Under the pieces are notes generated by a model. It had not been told where the DNA came from, searched no databases, and saw only the letters and a list, made by a program, of their open reading frames with translations. A stretch of 38,339 nucleotides of DNA from Clostridia bacterium (lineage in GTDB: Bacteria; Bacillota; Clostridia; Oscillospirales; CAG-272): positions 1 to 38,339 of the forward strand of contig JAKSPQ010000003.1 in the NCBI GenBank assembly GCA_024404665.1, read 5' to 3'. Shown here piece after piece: positions 26,671 through 31,492 of the stretch; position 1 is the stretch's first letter; every line of letters starts with the position of its first letter. The position numbers and the translations under genes were made by a program.

Positions 26671-27485
26671 CTCTTTCTTTCGGACATAATGACCGATGCC
26701 GCCACGGCCGCATTGAGCGCTTCGACGCCCCGTCCCGCCGGCATCGGAATGAAGACCGTTCCGTTGCAGGCTGCAACTACCGCTTCGGAAAGGCCGTGTC
26801 CCTCATTGCCTATAACGAATATATCGCTCCGTTTTACGCTAATGTCCGACAGACGGACAGCGTCGGAGGACAGCGCCGCACCGAGCACCCTTCTTCCCGA
26901 TGACGAAAGAGATTTTAAGGCTCCGGGAAGATCCGATGTTCTGATTATCCTTCTGGAAAAGACGGCACCCATGGCAGCCCTTACCGTTCTCGGATGGTAA
27001 ATATCCGCGCAATCGGAGGACAGCAGAAGGGTACCGACGCCGAAAGCTGCGGCCGAGCGTATCACCGTGCCCAGATTACCCGGGTCCTGCACCGATTCAA
27101 CGGCGATGACGTCCTCGTCCGCGGCAGCGGCCGCGGCATCACTGTTATTATCAAAGCTTTTGTGAAGTCTGTCGATGTACCCGGCAACGCATATTATGCC
27201 CTGAGGAGCTTTCTCCTCCGTTATCTTGGAGAAGGCGGGTCCCGAAAGGATAACCGGCTGTGCAGACGGGGTTTTATCTGCTATCAGGGGCAGATATCTG
27301 TCGGCGATATCTTCACGCAGCAGCACATATTCCGGACTGATTCCGCATGCCGCCGACTCTTCGAACAGCTTTAAGCCGTCAAAGCGGAAAAGGCGTTCAC
27401 TGTCGCGGTATTTTTTGTCCGACAGCGAGTGCATACGGATGACAAACTGATTTGTGCGGGAAGAAATGTATATTGCTTCCTTCAT
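26664..27485 (-). CDS. TrmH/SpoU family RNA methyltransferase
   Basis: VQDPGNLGTVIRSA, IGNEGHG and EALNAAVAA SPOUT motifs. Start placed at MKEAIYI. Confidence 0.92.
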   Translation of the reverse strand: MKEAIYISSRTNQFVIRMHSLSDKKYRDSERLFRFDGLKLFEESAACGISPEYVLLREDIADRYLPLIADKTPSAQPVILSGPAFSKITEEKAPQGIICVAGYIDRLHKSFDNNSDAAAAAADEDVIAVESVQDPGNLGTVIRSAAAFGVGTLLLSSDCADIYHPRTVRAAMGAVFSRRIIRTSDLPGALKSLSSSGRRVLGAALSSDAVRLSDISVKRSDIFVIGNEGHGLSEAVVAACNGTVFIPMPAGRGVEALNAAVAASVIMSERKRC

Positions 27486-27539
27486 TTTTACTGAAAAACG
27501 TCCTATAAAAGCACCGGCAAAAGCCGGCTTAACATAGAC

Positions 27540-27574
27540 ATATGAGGCTGCGGCATAAGCACGCAGCCCCATAT
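27540..27574 (-). terminator. Hairpin after rplT (probable terminator or processing stem)
   Basis: Minus strand atatggggctgcg / cgcagcctcatat stem. The U-tract is weak. Confidence 0.5.
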
Positions 27575-27581
27575 ATTAAAA

Positions 27582-27935
27582 TCAGAGAGCAGCCTTGGCC
27601 TGGTTGCAGAGGGCAGCAAATGCTTCCTTGTCGGCAACGGCAATCTCGGCGAGCATCTTGCGGTTAAGATCTACGCCGGCTTTCTTGAGGCCGTGGATAA
27701 GGGTGGAATAGTTCATTCCGTTCACCTTGGCCTGTGCATTGATTCTAGCAATCCAGAGAGAGCGGAAATCTCTCTTCTTGAGCTTGCGTCCGATATATGC
27801 GTAATTTCCGCTCTTCATTACAGCCTGCTTGGCTGTGCGGAAATGCTTGCTCTTTGCACCGTAATAGCCCTTAGCGGCCTTAAGAACGGCGTTTCTTCTC
27901 TTGCGCGCCATAATCGCGCCCTTTACTCTTGCCAT
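27582..27935 (-). CDS. rplT: 50S ribosomal protein L20
   Basis: [25 protein letters not shown] and [10 protein letters not shown] motifs. Confidence 0.98.
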
Positions 27936-27969
27936 TTTTCTTTCCTCCTGTTATTCCGGTCGATCCGCT

Positions 27970-28164
27970 TCACTTATTGATAAGTGCACGAATGTTGGAC
28001 GCGACCTTGCCCTGAACGAAATCGGCAGTGCGAAGGTGTCTCTTTCTCTTCTGGTCCTTAAGTCCGAGCTTGTGACGATGATGAGAATGGTTCATTTTTA
28101 CCTTGCCGTTAGCGGTTACGTCGAAACGCTTGGCAGAGGCTCTGTGAGTCTTGATTTTTCCCAT
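27970..28164 (-). CDS. rpmI: 50S ribosomal protein L35
   Basis: MGKIKTHRASAKRF..T..GK; lies between infC and rplT. Confidence 0.97.
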   Translation of the reverse strand: MGKIKTHRASAKRFDVTANGKVKMNHSHHRHKLGLKDQKRKRHLRTADFVQGKVASNIRALINK

Positions 28165-28233
28165 AGCGGTTTATCTCCTGCAAATTAAAATATACTTTTC
28201 TGTACTCCGCAGACGTGCGGAGCATGATTTCGG

Positions 28234-28818
28234 TTATGATTCGGAAGTGACTTCCTCGGTCTTTACTTCCGCAGTCTGGTTCTTATCCTTCTTTGAAGAG
28301 TCCTTCCTGGCAATCGGTGAGACAATCATGGTCATAAGCTTGCCGTCGAGAACGGGGGCCTTTTCGACCGTTCCGCTTTCCTTTACGGCTTCCTTGAACT
28401 GATCAAGGATGTCCTTGCCGAGCTGCTGATGGCTCATCTCACGACCGCGGAATCTGAGAACAACCTTAACCTTGTTTCCGTCTCCCAAGAAGCGTAAGGC
28501 GTGGTTGACCTTGGTTTCAAAGTCGTGTGTTTCGATGCGGCAGGAAAGCTGAACCTCTTTGACTTCGATGATGTTCTGCTTCTTCTTGGCTTCCTTTTCC
28601 CTCTTGTCCTGCTCGAAGCGGTAGCGTCCGTAATCGGCGATTCTGCATACGGGGGGCTGGGCGTTGGGAGAGATGAGAATCAGGTCGAGGCCGGAATTGT
28701 AAGCGATGCGGAGTGCGCTTTCGGGCGCCATGATCCCCAGCTGCTGACCGTCCTGATTAATGACTCTGACTTCCTTGCATCTGATGTTTTCGTTGATAAG
28801 AGTTTCCTTGGTTGCTAT
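28234..28818 (-). CDS. infC: Translation initiation factor IF-3 (ATA start)
   Basis: The frame extends upstream of the track start with the conserved INENI...EVRVI...G.QLGIM motif. SD GGAGGTG (28832-28826) lies 7 nt before an in-frame ATA (28818-28816). Confidence 0.95.
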   Translation of the reverse strand: MATKETLINENIRCKEVRVINQDGQQLGIMAPESALRIAYNSGLDLILISPNAQPPVCRIADYGRYRFEQDKREKEAKKKQNIIEVKEVQLSCRIETHDFETKVNHALRFLGDGNKVKVVLRFRGREMSHQQLGKDILDQFKEAVKESGTVEKAPVLDGKLMTMIVSPIARKDSSKKDKNQTAEVKTEEVTSES

Positions 28819-28864
28819 TGTTGTTCACCTCCGGGTTAAACGGGCAAATTGTTAATGGATTTGG

Positions 28865-28988
28865 AAAAAAATAAGCACGGAGAATCTCCGTGCGCACGTC
28901 TTCCCCGGGGTGTATCCGCCGGGAAACAGTCTTATCAACGCCTGCGCGCCTCTGCGGCAGGGTGAGAACGGAGAGTTCTGCTTAATTC
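28865..28988 (-). promoter_or_regulatory. L20 leader-type ribosomal protein attenuator
   Basis: 5' UTR of infC-rpmI-rplT with AAGCAGAA...CCGTTCTCACC, ending in a terminator stem gcacggaga / tctccgtgc plus a T-run. Position and architecture fit the Firmicutes L20 leader. Confidence 0.75.
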
Positions 28989-28994
28989 CGAGAC

Positions 28995-29023
28995 ATTATA
29001 TCACTTTTCAGGGCTTTTGTCAA
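28995..29023 (-). promoter_or_regulatory. Consensus sigma-A promoter of the infC operon
   Basis: Perfect TTGACA-17 nt-TATAAT with an extended TG. Confidence 0.9.
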
Positions 29024-29107
29024 TACTTTTTTCAAAAAATATGAGCTTTGTCAGTTGTTTGTAATTATTGCACATTTTTTGTGTGTGTTTTTTGTGAAAA
29101 CTCATAA

Positions 29108-29136
29108 TTTACAAATCGCTCCGGATGTAGTATAAT
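29108..29136 (+). promoter_or_regulatory. Sigma-A-type promoter divergent from infC, with no downstream ORF
   Basis: TTTACA (29108-29113)-17 nt-TATAAT (29131-29136), with AT-rich sequence upstream. Confidence 0.65.
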
Positions 29137-29142
29137 ATTTTC

Positions 29143-29260
29143 ACTCTCGCAGGTTATCCTGCGTCAGGCCTCGAATGCACAACGGTCACTTTTTTCTCGC
29201 GGAATATCAAGCTAATGATATCAACGCGCGGGGAATCGTCACCGTTGTTGCTTTTTTTTT
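29143..29260 (+). ncRNA. Candidate small RNA (~120 nt)
   Basis: Promoter upstream, hairpin cgcagg/cctgcg, long interrupted hairpin at 29177-29251, then T9. G-U pairs favour the + strand. Confidence 0.5.
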
Positions 29261-29269
29261 GCATTTTTT

Positions 29270-29555
29270 ACGAAAACACCGGCGGTGTAACCGAACCTCG
29301 CACCGGCAATAAGGTTTTTCCGCAAATCCGTCCGCAGCCTGATTGTATATCAATATAATTAATTCCTGTCAACAGTAAACACTGACCGATAAGCAATAAC
29401 AAAAAGAATAATCAATAACATATTACTTTAAACGTTGACTCTTACCGGCTTTTTCTCCGTAAAAGGAAGGGGTGGCTGCGAACCGGGCTGTCCGAAAACG
29501 CCCCGAGGGCGCTTTCGCGGTCCCGCGTTTCGGGGATCCGCGGCGGAAATTCAAT
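29270..29555 (-). ncRNA. Candidate structured RNA / 3' element with an internal 6-7-nt repeat tract
   Basis: Eight TG(n)TTAy-like units at 29368-29420, enclosed by long-range complementary segments. GC-rich hairpins lie next to the upstream stop codon. Confidence 0.45.
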
Positions 29556-29560
29556 CAGAC

Positions 29561-30073
29561 TTAAATATCCACCTCAAATTTCTCGGAGGTATTGAGAGCA
29601 TCGAGAGCAAGCTGGATGTCCGAAATCTCGTCGGAGAGCCTGTCGTAAGCCTCGGCGGCCTTTGCGATGTCGTAGTTTGCGTAGGTATACTCGATAATTC
29701 CGGAAGCCGACGGGCGGTAGGATTCGCCGCCTCTGGTCTTTGGCAGAACGTTCTTCATGGCGGAGAGCTTTTTCAGCTTTTCGCTCATAATCGGGAGAGA
29801 TACGAGTATCTCGTCCACGGTCATGTCGTAGCTTCCGACCTTGTGGGTAGTATTGAAAACATTTACGGCATGCTTTAAGCGTCTGATTTTTTCCGCGGTT
29901 TCATCGAGCTTTTTCTGTGTTTCCTCAAAATCGTAAACGGGTCTTACGGTCTCGATATCCTCTCCGACCGCAGCCACAAAGCTTTTGGACTTTCCTTCAA
30001 GCTCCGTGAGGGATCTGTATTCTTCGTTGAGTTTTTTAAGCAGTTTGTTTGCCTCGGCGCTGGTGATGTACAT
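29561..30073 (-). CDS. Conserved hypothetical alpha-helical / coiled-coil protein (170 aa)
   Basis: SD AAAGGA, ATG start and host-like codon usage. Heptad-rich helices with no recognisable catalytic motif. Confidence 0.8.
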   Translation of the reverse strand: MYITSAEANKLLKKLNEEYRSLTELEGKSKSFVAAVGEDIETVRPVYDFEETQKKLDETAEKIRRLKHAVNVFNTTHKVGSYDMTVDEILVSLPIMSEKLKKLSAMKNVLPKTRGGESYRPSASGIIEYTYANYDIAKAAEAYDRLSDEISDIQLALDALNTSEKFEVDI

Positions 30074-30142
30074 TATTTTATATTCCTTTCGTTTTTTCGG
30101 CTGTCGGCTGCGCTTTCGCGGCCGACTTTTCGGTTCTGAGGG

Positions 30143-31492
30143 TTATCCGTTGTATACGAGGACATAATCCACCCTGGCAATCGATACGGCTCCGCCTCCG
30201 TTGAAGGTAACATATCTGATGCCGTCATAGTTCATCATGGTTTCGGACTCCCAGCTCGTATTCATATGAACGGTTCTGACATATCCGTCGGTCCAGGAAT
30301 AAACCACAATAATGTTGTCGGTCGATTTGCCGGCAGCGGTGGAAAGCGGCATGTAGATATAATCGTCGTCGCAGTCCATTCCCTGTCCCGTGTAATTCGG
30401 CTCGCTGTGGAACGATATTTTCTGAACGACCTTAAAATCGCCGTCGCAGATATTTATGGCGCCTCCGGCCGCGATGACGTACCTGTCGCGGGCTTCGTTG
30501 TACGCGATAGCCCACGGAGTGCCTCCGAGCCAGGTTGCATTAACGGTTTCCTTGAGCTCCAGCGTTTCGGGATCGATGATGCTGATGAGCGTGCCGTTCA
30601 TGTTCGGAGCGACGAGACGGTTTCTCAGCGAATCGTAGCACATGTCGTTGTGGTGATCGGTGGGAAGCTCCGGGCCCAGCATGACCTCCTTGTTTGTACC
30701 GATGTCGATTTTAACGATTTTATTGGTCTCAACTCCGGCGCTTGTCTTCTTGTGGAGCGTGACATAAAAATACTTTCCGTCGGTAGCGGAGCCCTGGGTT
30801 CCGTGAAAATCTCCGTGCGCCGCAATATTTTTGAATCTTTTGAAGGTTGCGATGACTCCGAGAGGAGAATTCATGATTTTTGAAAGCGTAAGCTCCGAGG
30901 TCTTGTATTTTTCAGAGAGGCCTGTCGGCAGCTTCATGGACTTATCGGACACAAAATCCTTATTGAACATATATCTCGCATCGAACGAGCTCAGGGCCAT
31001 GGCGGTAAGCGAATCGTTCTTTCCGGCTATTACAAGCTTGTCGCCGATAACGGCAAAGCCGTATTCGTTCTCTTCCAGCGAATCGATGAATTCCCGGGTC
31101 TCGTCCCTGTCGCACGCGCCGATGAGGATTTCCGGTCCGTTTTTGCTTCCGGGATATGAGGGAGTGCTGAAATCGGTACTGAGGTCGAGCTCGAGCCCGA
31201 CTCTTTTTTTCAGCAATTTTTTAAAGGCCAGGGCGTCCTGAGTGCATGCATCGTTCTCATCGGGTCTGACAATAACGAATTTGCTGGCGCCGTCCTTAAC
31301 TATTTCCAGGAATTCGGGCGCCGGCTCTGTCGTAATTATTGCCTCCGTCGATGACGGCTCCCCCGTCTGCTCCGGCTCGTTTTTTCCGCAGGACGCAGCA
31401 AACAGCGATGCCGCCGCAAGAGACAGACACATTGCCCTTTTCACAAAAATCGATGCTTTATTCTTTTTTGTCGGAATTATCATGGTATTCAT
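30143..31492 (-). CDS. Hypothetical lipoprotein with a probable C-terminal beta-propeller
   Basis: Lipobox FAASC. N-terminal EILIG..DR...E.GF...GDKLVIAG segment resembles the N-domain of GH20/GH67-type enzymes. Repeated QG..TDG.Y.Y / HNDMCYD / QGMDCD..YIY blades follow. Confidence 0.7.
   Translation of the reverse strand: MNTMIIPTKKNKASIFVKRAMCLSLAAASLFAASCGKNEPEQTGEPSSTEAIITTEPAPEFLEIVKDGASKFVIVRPDENDACTQDALAFKKLLKKRVGLELDLSTDFSTPSYPGSKNGPEILIGACDRDETREFIDSLEENEYGFAVIGDKLVIAGKNDSLTAMALSSFDARYMFNKDFVSDKSMKLPTGLSEKYKTSELTLSKIMNSPLGVIATFKRFKNIAAHGDFHGTQGSATDGKYFYVTLHKKTSAGVETNKIVKIDIGTNKEVMLGPELPTDHHNDMCYDSLRNRLVAPNMNGTLISIIDPETLELKETVNATWLGGTPWAIAYNEARDRYVIAAGGAINICDGDFKVVQKISFHSEPNYTGQGMDCDDDYIYMPLSTAAGKSTDNIIVVYSWTDGYVRTVHMNTSWESETMMNYDGIRYVTFNGGGAVSIARVDYVLVYNG

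What the first reader, a model, noticed from the sequence alone, without database searches (positions are those of the whole stretch)
29270..30073. Uncharacterised helical protein followed by a structured RNA-like element with a caged 6-7-nt repeat tract: candidate protein + ncRNA system
Seen in sequence: downstream of the 170-aa gene, ~300 nt have no credible ORF but are highly organised. On the minus strand, two GC hairpins follow the stop codon. An AT-rich tract at 29420-29368 then reads TGTTAT TGATTAT TCTTTT TGTTAT TGCTTAT CGGTCAG TGTTTAC TGTTGAC, eight degenerate units of consensus TG(n)TTAy. Two long-range helices enclose the tract: 29474-29486 with 29328-29339 (12 bp, one bulge) and 29442-29448 with 29303-29309 (7 bp). 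Each contains a pair that is G-U only on the minus strand, the strand of the gene. The helices are interleaved (A-B-A'-B'), implying a pseudoknot or switch. The element ends in a small ACACC/GGTGT hairpin plus T-run. Inference: an oligomeric protein ring or filament could bind one repeat per subunit, as TRAP does on its periodic RNA repeats, forming an RNP or autoregulatory module. From memory only and unverified, the protein's size and helical pattern recall DIP1984-like proteins.
Basis: partly seen in the sequence, partly recalled or inferred. Interest (0 to 1): 0.8.

Follow-up and report, generated by a model that had tools for sequence, protein, structure and literature searches.

The report
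Conserved structured RNA behind DIP1984-like gene
A small helical protein gene of gut and rumen Clostridia and their phages is always followed, a few bases after its stop codon, by a large folded RNA with a pseudoknot that matches no catalogued RNA family, which points to an undescribed protein-plus-RNA pair of unknown function.

Summary
Window 29549-29276 (minus strand, about 274 nt) is a structured RNA domain that starts 12 nt after the stop codon of the 170-aa gene.

- **Linkage to the gene.** A covariance model built on the RNA found it directly 3' of the gene in 87 of 88 bacterial sources and in 18 of 18 viral-contig loci. It hit once in the window's own genome. In a 151-genome family sample it hit only the 6 genomes that carry the gene.
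- **RNA-first check.** A metagenome scan with an RNA pattern found the gene upstream in 58 of 61 loci that could be judged.
- **Novelty.** No Rfam 15 family matches.
- **The protein.** It has the DIP1984 fold (3kdq, Z 12.8), is acidic, and is predicted to form a homodimer.
- **Context.** No neighbouring gene is conserved, so gene plus RNA is a self-contained, mobile module.
- **Sister family.** Bona fide DUF6847 genes carry a different conserved RNA in the same position.
- **Open.** Function, protein-RNA binding and transcription are untested.

The parts
29561..30073 (-). Gene for a 170-aa helical, acidic protein with the DIP1984 fold. The SD AAGGA lies at 30088-30084 and the TAA stop at 29563-29561.
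   Evidence: ORF. Weak, sub-threshold DUF6847 and DIP1984_fam matches. AlphaFold2 pLDDT 92.5. Top structural hit 3kdq.
29276..29549 (-). The whole structured RNA domain, read as a 3' extension of the gene's mRNA.
   Evidence: CM R1 hit at 29264-29465, 90 bits. MFE -95.5 kcal/mol, z -3.21, 0 of 200 shuffles as good. The 5' limit comes from the conserved motif and helix P0.
29541..29549 (-). 5' motif UUUCCGCCG (family consensus UUUCCGUC), 12 nt after the stop codon. In the window's MFE, UUUCCGC pairs with GCGGAAA just before the pseudoknot.
   Evidence: A motif of this kind starts a median 6 nt after the stop in 70 of 80 loci. Window MFE.
29534..29543 (-). P0 outer helix, 5' strand CCGCGGAUCC. 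It pairs with GGAUUUGCGG at 29329-29320.
   Evidence: Read from the sequence and the MFE. The MFE pairs these strands in a different register. P0 own-versus-other partner test.
29494..29533 (-). Two GC-rich hairpins, a branch inserted inside P0 in this lineage. The second (29516-29507 with 29503-29494) looks like a terminator.
   Evidence: MFE structures. The branch is absent at this position in the 13 other elements folded.
29474..29483 (-). P0 inner helix, 5' strand GUUCGCAGCC.
   Evidence: Ten contiguous pairs with 29339-29330. The helix covaries across lineages.
29410..29440 (-). Tentative hairpin P1 (AGUCAA 29440-29435 with UUGAUU 29415-29410). Its loop carries the conserved motif GUUUAAAGU at 29433-29425.
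   Evidence: The motif GUUNANNGU is invariant or nearly so in 55 sequences. The stem is clear in GC-rich lineages but only weakly supported overall, 16 of 78 against controls of 10 and 4 of 78.
29389..29413 (-). Conserved U-rich tract GAUUAUUCUUUUUGUUAUUGCUUAU (family consensus GUUAUUC-U5-GUUAU-NN-GUUAU).
   Evidence: Conserved columns in A2. No reading frame is kept. No preferred pairing partner is predicted.
29368..29386 (-). Tentative hairpin P2 (GUCAG 29386-29382 with UUGAC 29372-29368). Its loop carries the second motif copy, GUUUACUGU. The promoter-like TTGACA is its 3' strand.
   Evidence: Motif conservation. Stems in other lineages. Weak overall support, 14 of 78.
29320..29339 (-). 3' strands of P0: GGCUGCGGAC (inner) and GGAUUUGCGG (outer).
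   Evidence: (outer-helix register).
29311..29319 (-). A-rich strand AAAAACCUU. AACCUU at 29316-29311 is the 5' strand of pseudoknot stem 1.
   Evidence: In A2, pair 233-270 is UA in 46 and CG in 9 sequences, with none unpaired. The window is a CG case.
29283..29305 (-). Pseudoknot hairpin. Stem is CGGUG 29305-29301 with CACCG 29287-29283. The loop CGAGGUUCGGUUA includes GAGGUU at 29299-29294, which pairs with AACCUU.
   Evidence: All 7 of 7 stem pairs have double changes and 91% of cells are paired. No shuffle of 500 reached the observed covariation score.
29271..29288 (-). Alternative small hairpin ACACC-GCC-GGUGU with a U-run, overlapping the 3' strand of the pseudoknot stem. Probable end of the transcript.
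   Evidence: Terminator-like site. A U-run follows the pseudoknot stem in 32 of 78 elements.

Best explanation
The 170-aa gene and the roughly 274 nt after it form one two-part module.

**The parts**
- The first part is a dimeric, helical protein with the DIP1984 fold.
- The second is a large structured RNA made as the 3' extension of the same mRNA. The fold begins a few bases after the stop codon, which leaves no room for a separate promoter. Co-transcription is inferred from this, not shown.

**The RNA fold**
- A long-range helix, P0, closes the domain. This is shown by covariation.
- Inside P0 lies about 150 nt that is conserved in sequence more than in pairing. It holds two copies of GUUNANNGU, which sit in hairpin loops where stems are visible, and a GUUAU-rich tract between them.
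- After P0 comes an A-rich strand and a hairpin that together form an H-type pseudoknot. This too is shown by covariation.
- In about 4 of 10 members the hairpin is followed by a U-run and probably ends the transcript.

**Most likely mechanism (inferred, not shown)**
- The RNA is the cognate partner of the protein it follows.
- The two-fold protein dimer recognises the two equivalent GUUNANNGU sites and the tract, forming an RNP in cis on its own transcript.
- That RNP either feeds back on the mRNA or is the working particle.

The module moves as a unit between genomes and phages.
For: **Linkage**
- CM R1 hits once, directly 3' of the gene and on its strand, in 87 of 88 sources. The one miss, L053, has only 21 nt after the stop. 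Of the 87, 55 were training sequences.
- R1 also hits in 18 of 18 viral-contig loci whose proteins are 34-50% identical. Sixteen hits are full length and two are split into two pieces.
- It hits once in the window's own genome.
- In 151 genomes of the family, the RNA is found in exactly the 6 that hold the protein and in 0 of the other 145.
- In the RNA-first metagenome scan, 58 of 61 loci with at least 760 nt upstream carry the gene. None of the 3 exceptions has the full RNA, and the one exception inspected, L182, is repeat-rich and non-coding.

**Autonomy**
- No neighbouring gene is conserved. The largest neighbour cluster holds 8 of 152 neighbour proteins (78 upstream, 74 downstream), and 121 Pfam families were seen among 150 neighbours.
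- Same-genus relatives have the 461-aa gene's homologue next to the plus-strand sRNA with no module between them. Their DNA does not match the RNA region.

**Structure**
- Covariation statistics for the pseudoknot and for P0.
- Further compensatory variants of pseudoknot stem 1, such as GCUU/AAGC and AAUCUU/GAGAUU, were read from sequences.

**Spacing**
- The 5' motif starts a median 6 nt after the stop in 70 of 80 loci.

**Protein**
- DIP1984 fold.
- The homodimer model supports binding. The ipSAE score is 0.73 against a best control of 0.00.
- In the tool's calibration, that mark was reached by 20 of 30 proteins solved as pairs of one chain and by 1 of 23 solved as single chains.
- The runs agree in at least 94% of contacts, and partner pLDDT is at least 89. 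A related solved structure (3kdq) exists, so the pass may come from memory.

**Parallel in the sister family**
- All 13 inspected loci of bona fide DUF6847 genes carry a different conserved RNA after the stop; it starts about 10-15 nt after the stop in most of them and about 30 nt after in two. One of its helices covaries, for example AGUAC/GUACU, AGCAC/GUGCU, AGCGC/GCGCU and GACAU/AUGUC.
- A model of that RNA (R2) gives no full-length hit in the other 143 of 151 genomes.
Against: - Binding is not shown by any result here.
- The protein is acidic, with median pI 5.26 and net charge -5 over 80 members. That is unusual for an RNA-binding protein.
- Many of the most conserved residues lie in the predicted dimer interface rather than on an obvious RNA-binding face.
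- Hairpins P1 and P2, which would present the two motif copies, are only weakly supported across the family: 16 of 78 and 14 of 78, against controls of 10 and 4 of 78.
- Single-sequence folding gives no clear picture of the interior.
- Transcription, transcript ends and processing are unknown.
- In the window, a terminator-like hairpin sits inside the domain at 29516-29494.
- Strict linkage is equally expected for a purely cis-acting 3' UTR element.
Confidence: 0.5

Rival explanations
1. The RNA is a purely cis-acting 3' UTR element that does not bind the encoded protein. It could be a stabiliser against 3' exonucleases, a sensor of translation, or a ligand- or signal-sensing attenuator. In the translation-sensor version, a ribosome terminating 4-7 nt upstream would open the base of P0. 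In the attenuator version, the pseudoknot competes with a terminator.
For: - The fold begins a median 6 nt after the stop.
- A U-run follows the pseudoknot stem in 32 of 78 elements.
- In the window, a small terminator hairpin (29288-29276) overlaps the 3' strand of the pseudoknot stem.
- An A-rich strand plus an H-type pseudoknot is a common aptamer architecture. This point rests on my own knowledge.
- The protein is acidic.
Against: - Downstream genes are not conserved and are often convergent. In the window the next feature is a convergent sRNA, so read-through control has no consistent target.
- About 150 nt of invariant sequence motifs is far more than a stabiliser needs.
- The distant DUF6847 clade has a different RNA in the same place. 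That pattern fits protein-RNA co-evolution better than a common ligand.
Confidence: 0.3
2. The RNA is a functional non-coding RNA in its own right, such as a trans-acting or processed sRNA or a ribozyme-like or scaffold RNA. The protein would be an accessory such as a chaperone, or both would act in the conflict between phage and host.
For: - The RNA is a large, complex fold with invariant loop nucleotides.
- Family members occur in viral contigs and virome records, and some protein-atlas clusters are about half viral.
- Some neighbours are typical of mobile or defence islands: WYL, MazF, an integrase-like gene, RNA ligase, reverse transcriptase, PD-(D/E)XK and RtcB.
Against: - There are no PADLOC or PHROG matches of any weight.
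- Most neighbours are ordinary genes.
- No separate promoter is conserved, and the fold abuts the stop codon.
- No Rfam ribozyme or sRNA family matches.
Confidence: 0.12
3. One reading: a TRAP-like ring or filament of many subunits, each binding one of eight TG(n)TTAy repeats.
For: About seven conserved GUU-containing motifs lie within roughly 90 nt. The protein is predicted to self-associate.
Against: - The fold is a helical bundle like 3kdq, not a TRAP-like beta ring, and there is no TRAP family hit in Pfam.
- The motifs are unevenly spaced, and some lie in hairpin loops or stems.
- Only a dimer was modelled. Higher oligomers were not tested.
Confidence: 0.05
4. There is no dedicated RNA. 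On this view the region is the gene's terminators, an AT-rich spacer with a chance promoter (TTGACA-17-TATACA), or a small hydrophobic peptide gene (MLLIILFVIAY...). This was my first reading.
For: Promoter-like and terminator-like sites were found in the region. A 20-codon ATG ORF covers the tract in the window.
Against: - Conservation and covariation hold across more than 100 loci whose proteins are 34-59% identical.
- The TTGACA is one strand of a variable stem.
- No reading frame is kept.
Confidence: 0.02

Closest known systems
HutP and the hut operon RNA of Bacillus subtilis (recalled, not tested)
   Same: A small regulator gene is directly followed by the RNA that its own oligomeric product would bind. 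That RNA carries repeated short motifs and a terminator-type hairpin.
   Different: HutP has another fold and forms a hexamer that reads UAG triplets. It controls a fixed downstream operon. Here there is no HutP family hit, the motifs are GUU-based, downstream genes are not conserved, and the RNA is about 270 nt with a long-range helix and a pseudoknot.
TRAP and the trp leader
   Same: The idea of a homo-oligomer reading repeated short RNA motifs.
   Different: TRAP is an 11-mer beta ring that reads evenly spaced GAG/UAG triplets in a 5' leader. Here the protein is a helical DIP1984-fold protein predicted as a dimer, the spacing is uneven, and the RNA lies 3' of the gene.
Rsr (Ro60) with Y RNA/YrlA, and type III toxin-antitoxin pairs such as ToxIN (recalled)
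   Same: A protein gene and a cognate structured non-coding RNA are inherited together as a patchy, mobile pair. Some neighbours here are RNA-repair enzymes (RtcB, RNA ligase, metallophosphoesterase).
   Different: The protein folds are different. ToxI is a tandem 36-nt repeat array upstream of the toxin. Y RNAs are separate genes. Here a single complex RNA abuts the stop codon, and there is no PADLOC match of weight.
DIP1984 / DUF6847 family (PF20935, NF038048; structure 3kdq)
   Same: The fold is the same (Z 12.8, 150 of 152 residues aligned) and the size is similar. This family also has a conserved structured RNA after the stop codon, starting about 10-15 nt after it in most loci seen.
   Different: Sequence scores fall below the curated cut-offs: 19 bits against 27, and 19.7 against 70. 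The RNA of that clade is different: R1 finds it in 0 of 18 loci, and it has its own blocks GGUAGC, GGCGAG-YRC, ACUACC-NN-GYRCUG and GUGAGGGYGGG.
Orphan large bacterial ncRNA motifs such as raiA, OLE and ROOL (listing; Rfam)
   Same: A covariation-supported RNA of more than 200 nt, of unknown function, found by comparative genomics in Bacillota.
   Different: None of those models matches. This RNA is bound to one particular protein family with a fixed spacing from its stop codon.

Membership tests
DIP1984 / DUF6847 (PF20935; NCBIfam NF038048) | Sequence score over the curated family cut-off | tested here: not met
   PF20935 scores 19 bits against a cut-off of 27. NF038048 scores 19.7 against 70. 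Only 16 of 80 relatives match PF20935 at E <= 0.01.
DIP1984 / DUF6847 (PF20935; NCBIfam NF038048) | Fold of the solved member 3kdq | tested here: met
   Foldseek on 3kdq_C gives E 8e-4, probability 1.00 and TM 0.57/0.62. VIA on 3kdq_A gives Z 12.8, rmsd 5.4 and 150 of 152 residues aligned, with the next entry at 8.7. An atlas row named 'DIP1984 family protein' has TM 0.68.
Any Rfam 15 RNA family | cmscan match at the element | tested here: not met
   In window 27000-31000 at E <= 1, the only hit is L20_leader elsewhere. In 19 homologous loci at E <= 1, there were 4 hits and none lies in the element.
TRAP-type attenuation system | TRAP protein family or beta-ring fold | tested here: not met
   No such Pfam hit. 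The model is a four-helix bundle with a small sheet.
TRAP-type attenuation system | 9-11 evenly spaced (G/U)AG triplets in a 5' leader | tested here: not met
   The conserved motifs are GUU-based, unevenly spaced, and lie 3' of the gene.
HutP-type antitermination | A fixed downstream operon under read-through control | tested here: not met
   Downstream genes differ between loci. In the window the neighbour is convergent.
HutP-type antitermination | RNA target directly after the regulator gene, ending in a terminator-type hairpin | tested here: inconclusive
   The RNA abuts the stop codon. A U-run follows the pseudoknot stem in 32 of 78 elements.
Type III toxin-antitoxin (ToxIN-like) | Tandem direct repeats of a roughly 36-nt antitoxin RNA upstream of the toxin gene | tested here: not met
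   The element is a single-copy complex RNA downstream of the gene. PADLOC gave no match better than E 0.002 to unrelated coiled-coil models.
H-type RNA pseudoknot | Loop of a hairpin pairs with a strand outside it, with compensatory changes | tested here: met
   Pair 233-270 is UA in 46 and CG in 9 sequences, with none unpaired. Pair 234-269 is UA in 52 and CG in 1. The whole structure is 89% paired, against 74% in shuffles and at most 50% with slid partners.
Protein-RNA complex (RNP) of this gene pair | Direct, specific binding | not testable with these tools
   No tool here models or measures protein-RNA binding. Only co-occurrence and the homodimer were tested.

The most novel reading that the evidence does not exclude
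Proteins of the DIP1984 fold would be a widespread, unrecognised class of RNA-partnered proteins. The class would include DUF6847 and this family from Clostridia and their phages. Each clade encodes its own cognate structured RNA of roughly 190-280 nt, beginning a few to about 30 nt after the stop codon, so that the dimer assembles in cis on its own transcript. The resulting RNPs would be autonomous, horizontally mobile modules. They are often carried by phages or genomic islands, and may act in RNA-level conflict or RNA repair.
Probability: 0.3. Interest if true: 0.85.

Novelty: new variant of a known kind. Interest (0 to 1): 0.72.

Why it matters
**What it would give**
- It gives a first functional handle on a protein family that has had a solved structure (3kdq) since 2009 but no known role.
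- It adds a large, covariation-supported RNA with a pseudoknot to the short list of complex bacterial RNAs of unknown function.
- Unlike most orphan RNA motifs, this one comes with an obvious candidate partner and a fixed geometry relative to the stop codon. The hypothesis can therefore be tested directly by binding assays, co-purification and structure determination.

**Scope**
- The same arrangement, with a different RNA, occurs in the distant DUF6847 clade. That suggests a general principle rather than a one-off.
- The module is common in gut and rumen Clostridia and in their viral fraction.

Tried and rejected
**Readings tested and dropped**
- Terminators plus a promoter or UP element. This was my first reading. 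It was dropped after searches showed conservation downstream of homologues.
- A small hydrophobic peptide ORF. No frame is preferred.
- The tract acting as an anti-SD against the gene's own 5' UTR. The mean duplex energy is -9.67 kcal/mol against -9.91 for a shuffled tract, n = 71.
- A helix between the tract centre and the segment upstream of P1. The own partner is in the best 10% in 6 of 66, which is chance level.
- P1 and P2 as family-wide helices. Support is weak, and base-pair probabilities are diffuse.
- Column-wise mutual information on the CM alignment recovered only the pseudoknot.
- A fixed-offset register for P0 gave no single register.

**Database searches that found nothing useful**
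- Rfam.
- PADLOC and PHROGs: nothing of weight.
- Plasmid collection: no match.
- Phage collection: 2 unannotated virome fragments.
- R1 on loci of bona fide DUF6847 genes: 0 of 18.
- Profile search against PDB sequences: no hit below E 0.1.

**Expression**
- No RNA holder is listed among the 21 sequencing runs returned.

**Literature**
- 'DIP1984' gave 1 paper, seen as a listing only, and unrelated.
- 'DUF6847' gave 0 papers.
- 'DUF2203' gave 1 paper, listing only.
- 'septicolysin' gave 34 papers, of which a listing of 8 was seen, all genome annotations.
- '3KDQ' gave 2 unrelated papers.
- RNA-motif discovery papers were seen as a listing only.
- In PMC11109978, six search terms gave no occurrence.
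- Supplementary motif tables of those discovery papers could not be seen. They may list this motif.
Full report
**1. Layout of the region**

On the minus strand the window holds, in order:
- a 461-aa gene at 31528-30143;
- the 170-aa gene at 30073-29561;
- about 540 nt without a credible ORF;
- the infC-rpmI-rplT operon.

My first reading was mundane. The true infC promoter and an L20-leader-like element lie further down at 29023-28863.

A DNA search in relatives seemed to agree with that reading. In two relatives (L002, L010) the 461-aa gene's homologue sits directly next to that conserved block, with no 170-aa gene between them. The gene and its tail are therefore an insertion in this genome.

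**2. The reading changed when homologues of the protein were collected**

The protein is patchy. It is found in 8 of 301 genomes of the family, counting the window's own. A scan of 185,579 species' genomes found 280 relatives, of which the best 80 loci were kept.

Their downstream sequences are conserved although the proteins are only 46-59% identical:
- a block GUUAUUC-U5-GUUAU-NN-GUUAU lies about 85-105 nt after the stop;
- a block GAGAAAACUUU, then a stem, then (C/G)GAAGUWCGGUUWYA, then the other stem strand, lies about 180-200 nt after the stop.

**3. Covariation**

RNAalifold finds a 7-bp hairpin in which all seven pairs show double compensatory changes.

The hairpin loop (GAAGUU) pairs with the upstream AACUU, which makes an H-type pseudoknot. 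The key pair is U-A in 46 sequences and C-G in 9, and it is never unpaired. The window is one of the C-G cases, with AACCUU 29316-29311 pairing GAGGUU 29299-29294.

For the 13 pairs together:
- 89% of cells are paired, against 74% in column shuffles and at most 50% when partners are slid;
- the covariation score is 0.441 against 0.180, and no shuffle of 500 reached it.

Elements that failed my first regular expression carry further compensatory versions, such as GCUU/AAGC and AAUCUU/GAGAUU. I read these from the sequences.

**4.

In each of the 16 lineages printed, the sequence just after a conserved motif UUUCCGUC is complementary to the sequence just before GAGAAAAC, and the helix sequence differs from lineage to lineage. 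The motif starts a median 6 nt after the stop codon in 70 of 80 loci.

| Test | Own strands, mean kcal/mol | Other elements' strands | Own partner in best 10% |
|---|---|---|---|
| P0 long-range helix (helix A) | -19.3 | -11.1 | 43 of 67 |
| Pseudoknot stem (positive control) | -13.15 | -7.39 | 50 of 78 |
| P0 5' strand vs pseudoknot 3' strand (negative control) | -6.78 | -6.80 | 7 of 67 |
| Helix B-like pairing | -7.82 | -6.51 | 17 of 78 |

In the window this helix, P0, is split. The outer part is 29543-29534 with 29329-29320.

Its support across the family is only slightly above background (17 of 78). The interleaved A-B pseudoknot is therefore not supported, while another pseudoknot is.

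**5. The interior of the domain**

The roughly 150 nt inside P0 are conserved mostly as sequence. Two copies of GUUNANNGU share invariant positions at identical spacing. They flank the GUUAU tract.

In GC-richer lineages both copies sit in hairpin loops whose stems differ between lineages, for example CCUCCG/CGGAGG, GUUUCCC/GGGAAAC and GACCCG/CGGGUC. Over the whole family these stems are only weakly supported, so I treat P1 and P2 as tentative.

The region is not coding. The TTGACA that looks like a -35 box in the window is one strand of the P2 stem.

**6. Linkage between RNA and gene**

A covariance model, R1, was built from 55 elements.

| Search | Result |
|---|---|
| R1 on 88 sources | One hit in each of 87, always just 3' of the gene on its strand; the miss has only 21 nt of downstream sequence |
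| R1 on 18 viral-contig loci (proteins 34-50% identical) | Hits in all 18 |
| R1 on the window's own genome | One hit |
| R1 on 151 genomes of the family | Hits in the 6 genomes that carry the protein, and in none of the other 145 |
| RNA-first pattern scan of metagenomes | 80 loci retrieved; 61 had enough upstream sequence; 58 of those carry the gene |

The 3 exceptions in the metagenome scan lack the rest of the RNA. The one I inspected, L182, is repeat-rich and non-coding.

No other gene is conserved next to the pair.

**7. The protein**

- AlphaFold2 gives a confident four-helix bundle with a small sheet, pLDDT 92.5.
- The only clear structural relative is 3kdq, an uncharacterised Corynebacterium diphtheriae protein.
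- Sequence scores are below the curated family cut-offs.
- The protein is acidic.
- A homodimer is supported by the model, with a score of 0.73 against a best control of 0.00. In calibration, that mark was reached by 20 of 30 proteins solved as pairs of one chain and by 1 of 23 solved as single chains. The runs agree in at least 94% of contacts, and partner pLDDT is at least 89. A related solved structure exists, so this pass may be from memory.
- Public records name all relatives 'hypothetical protein'.
- Some protein-atlas clusters are about half viral.

**8. A parallel in the sister family**

Bona fide DUF6847 genes are present in 15 of 301 genomes of the phylum. They are not followed by the R1 RNA.

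All 13 loci I inspected carry another conserved RNA. In most it starts about 10-15 nt after the stop, and in two about 30 nt after. It has its own sequence blocks and a covarying helix. Their downstream genes also differ from locus to locus, and Rfam has no match there.

A model of that RNA, R2, gives no full-length hit in the 143 other genomes of a 151-genome sample. There was one partial 3'-motif hit in a genome without the gene, G402. The seven positive genomes had supplied the training sequences, except for the second copy in G440.

**9. What it most likely is and how it works**

Shown:
- a large structured RNA domain exists;
- it is strictly linked to this gene at a fixed distance from the stop codon;
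- it travels with the gene.

Inferred:
- it is co-transcribed with the gene;
- it is the cognate partner of the protein dimer, whose two-fold symmetry would match the two GUUNANNGU sites.

I put about 0.5 on an RNP of some kind. I put about 0.3 on a purely cis-acting 3' UTR device. One version is a translation-coupled sensor, since a terminating ribosome would open the base of P0. The other is a pseudoknot-versus-terminator switch, since a U-run follows the stem in 32 of 78 elements. The remainder goes to an RNA that acts on its own.

Expression could not be examined.

**10. Novelty**

No Rfam 15 family matches. No paper in the searchable library links DIP1984, DUF6847 or DUF2203 with an RNA. 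The supplementary tables of RNA-motif surveys could not be seen.

The kind of thing, a gene with a cognate structured RNA, is known. This RNA, its pairing with the DIP1984 fold, and its fixed position at the stop codon are not, as far as I could check.

Noticed in passing
window 29108-29261 (+): A small RNA gene candidate lies on the opposite strand and converges on the element. It has a promoter TTTACA-17-TATAAT (29108-29136), a variable covarying 5' hairpin, a long conserved hairpin and a U-run. It is conserved in 24 of 24 same-genus genomes. It carries 1-nt and 2-nt indels, so it is not coding. Eight of 33 consensus pairs show compensatory changes. No Rfam hit at E <= 1. It is not always next to infC.
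   Followed up: partly
window 28863-29023 (-): A perfect sigma-70 promoter (TTGACA-17-TATAAT with TG, 29023-28995) is followed by an L20-leader-like element (28989-28863). The element scores 27.5 bits against a gathering score of 58.7, and has a terminator at 28893-28875. This looks like a divergent L20 autoregulatory leader of the infC-rpmI-rplT operon.
   Followed up: partly
window 28816-28818 (-): infC most likely starts at a non-canonical ATA codon 7 nt after GGAGGTG. The frame is open from there (IATKETLINENIR...) and supplies the N-terminal part of the IF3_N domain that the ATG-started ORF lacks.
   Followed up: partly
L107-L119, L123 (downstream of bona fide DUF6847 genes): A second, different conserved structured RNA of about 190-240 nt follows DIP1984-family genes in other Bacillota. 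Its blocks are GGUAGC, GGCGAG-YRC, ACUACC-NN-GYRCUG and, in 12 of 13, GUGAGGGYGGG-N3-GGGG. Some copies hold a T-arm-like GGUUCAAAYCC hairpin. It is not in Rfam.
   Followed up: partly
L018, L019, L020, L129, L135: In some loci, genes next to the module encode a calcineurin-like metallophosphoesterase or an RNA ligase. Elsewhere the neighbours include RtcB, reverse transcriptase and PD-(D/E)XK nuclease. This hints at RNA-repair or mobile-island contexts, but there is no consistent partner.
   Followed up: partly
L025-L041 group and L069 group: In two lineages the P1 stem and the pseudoknot stem have nearly the same sequence, for example CCUCCG/CGGAGG beside CGGAGGUC/GACCUCCG. The strands could therefore swap partners. 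This may be an alternative conformation or a coincidence.
   Followed up: partly
L036, L070 (downstream of the gene, before P1): Elements from Synergistales-labelled records carry a tRNA T-arm-like GGGGUUCGAMUCCUC just upstream of the first GUUNANNGU motif.
   Followed up: no
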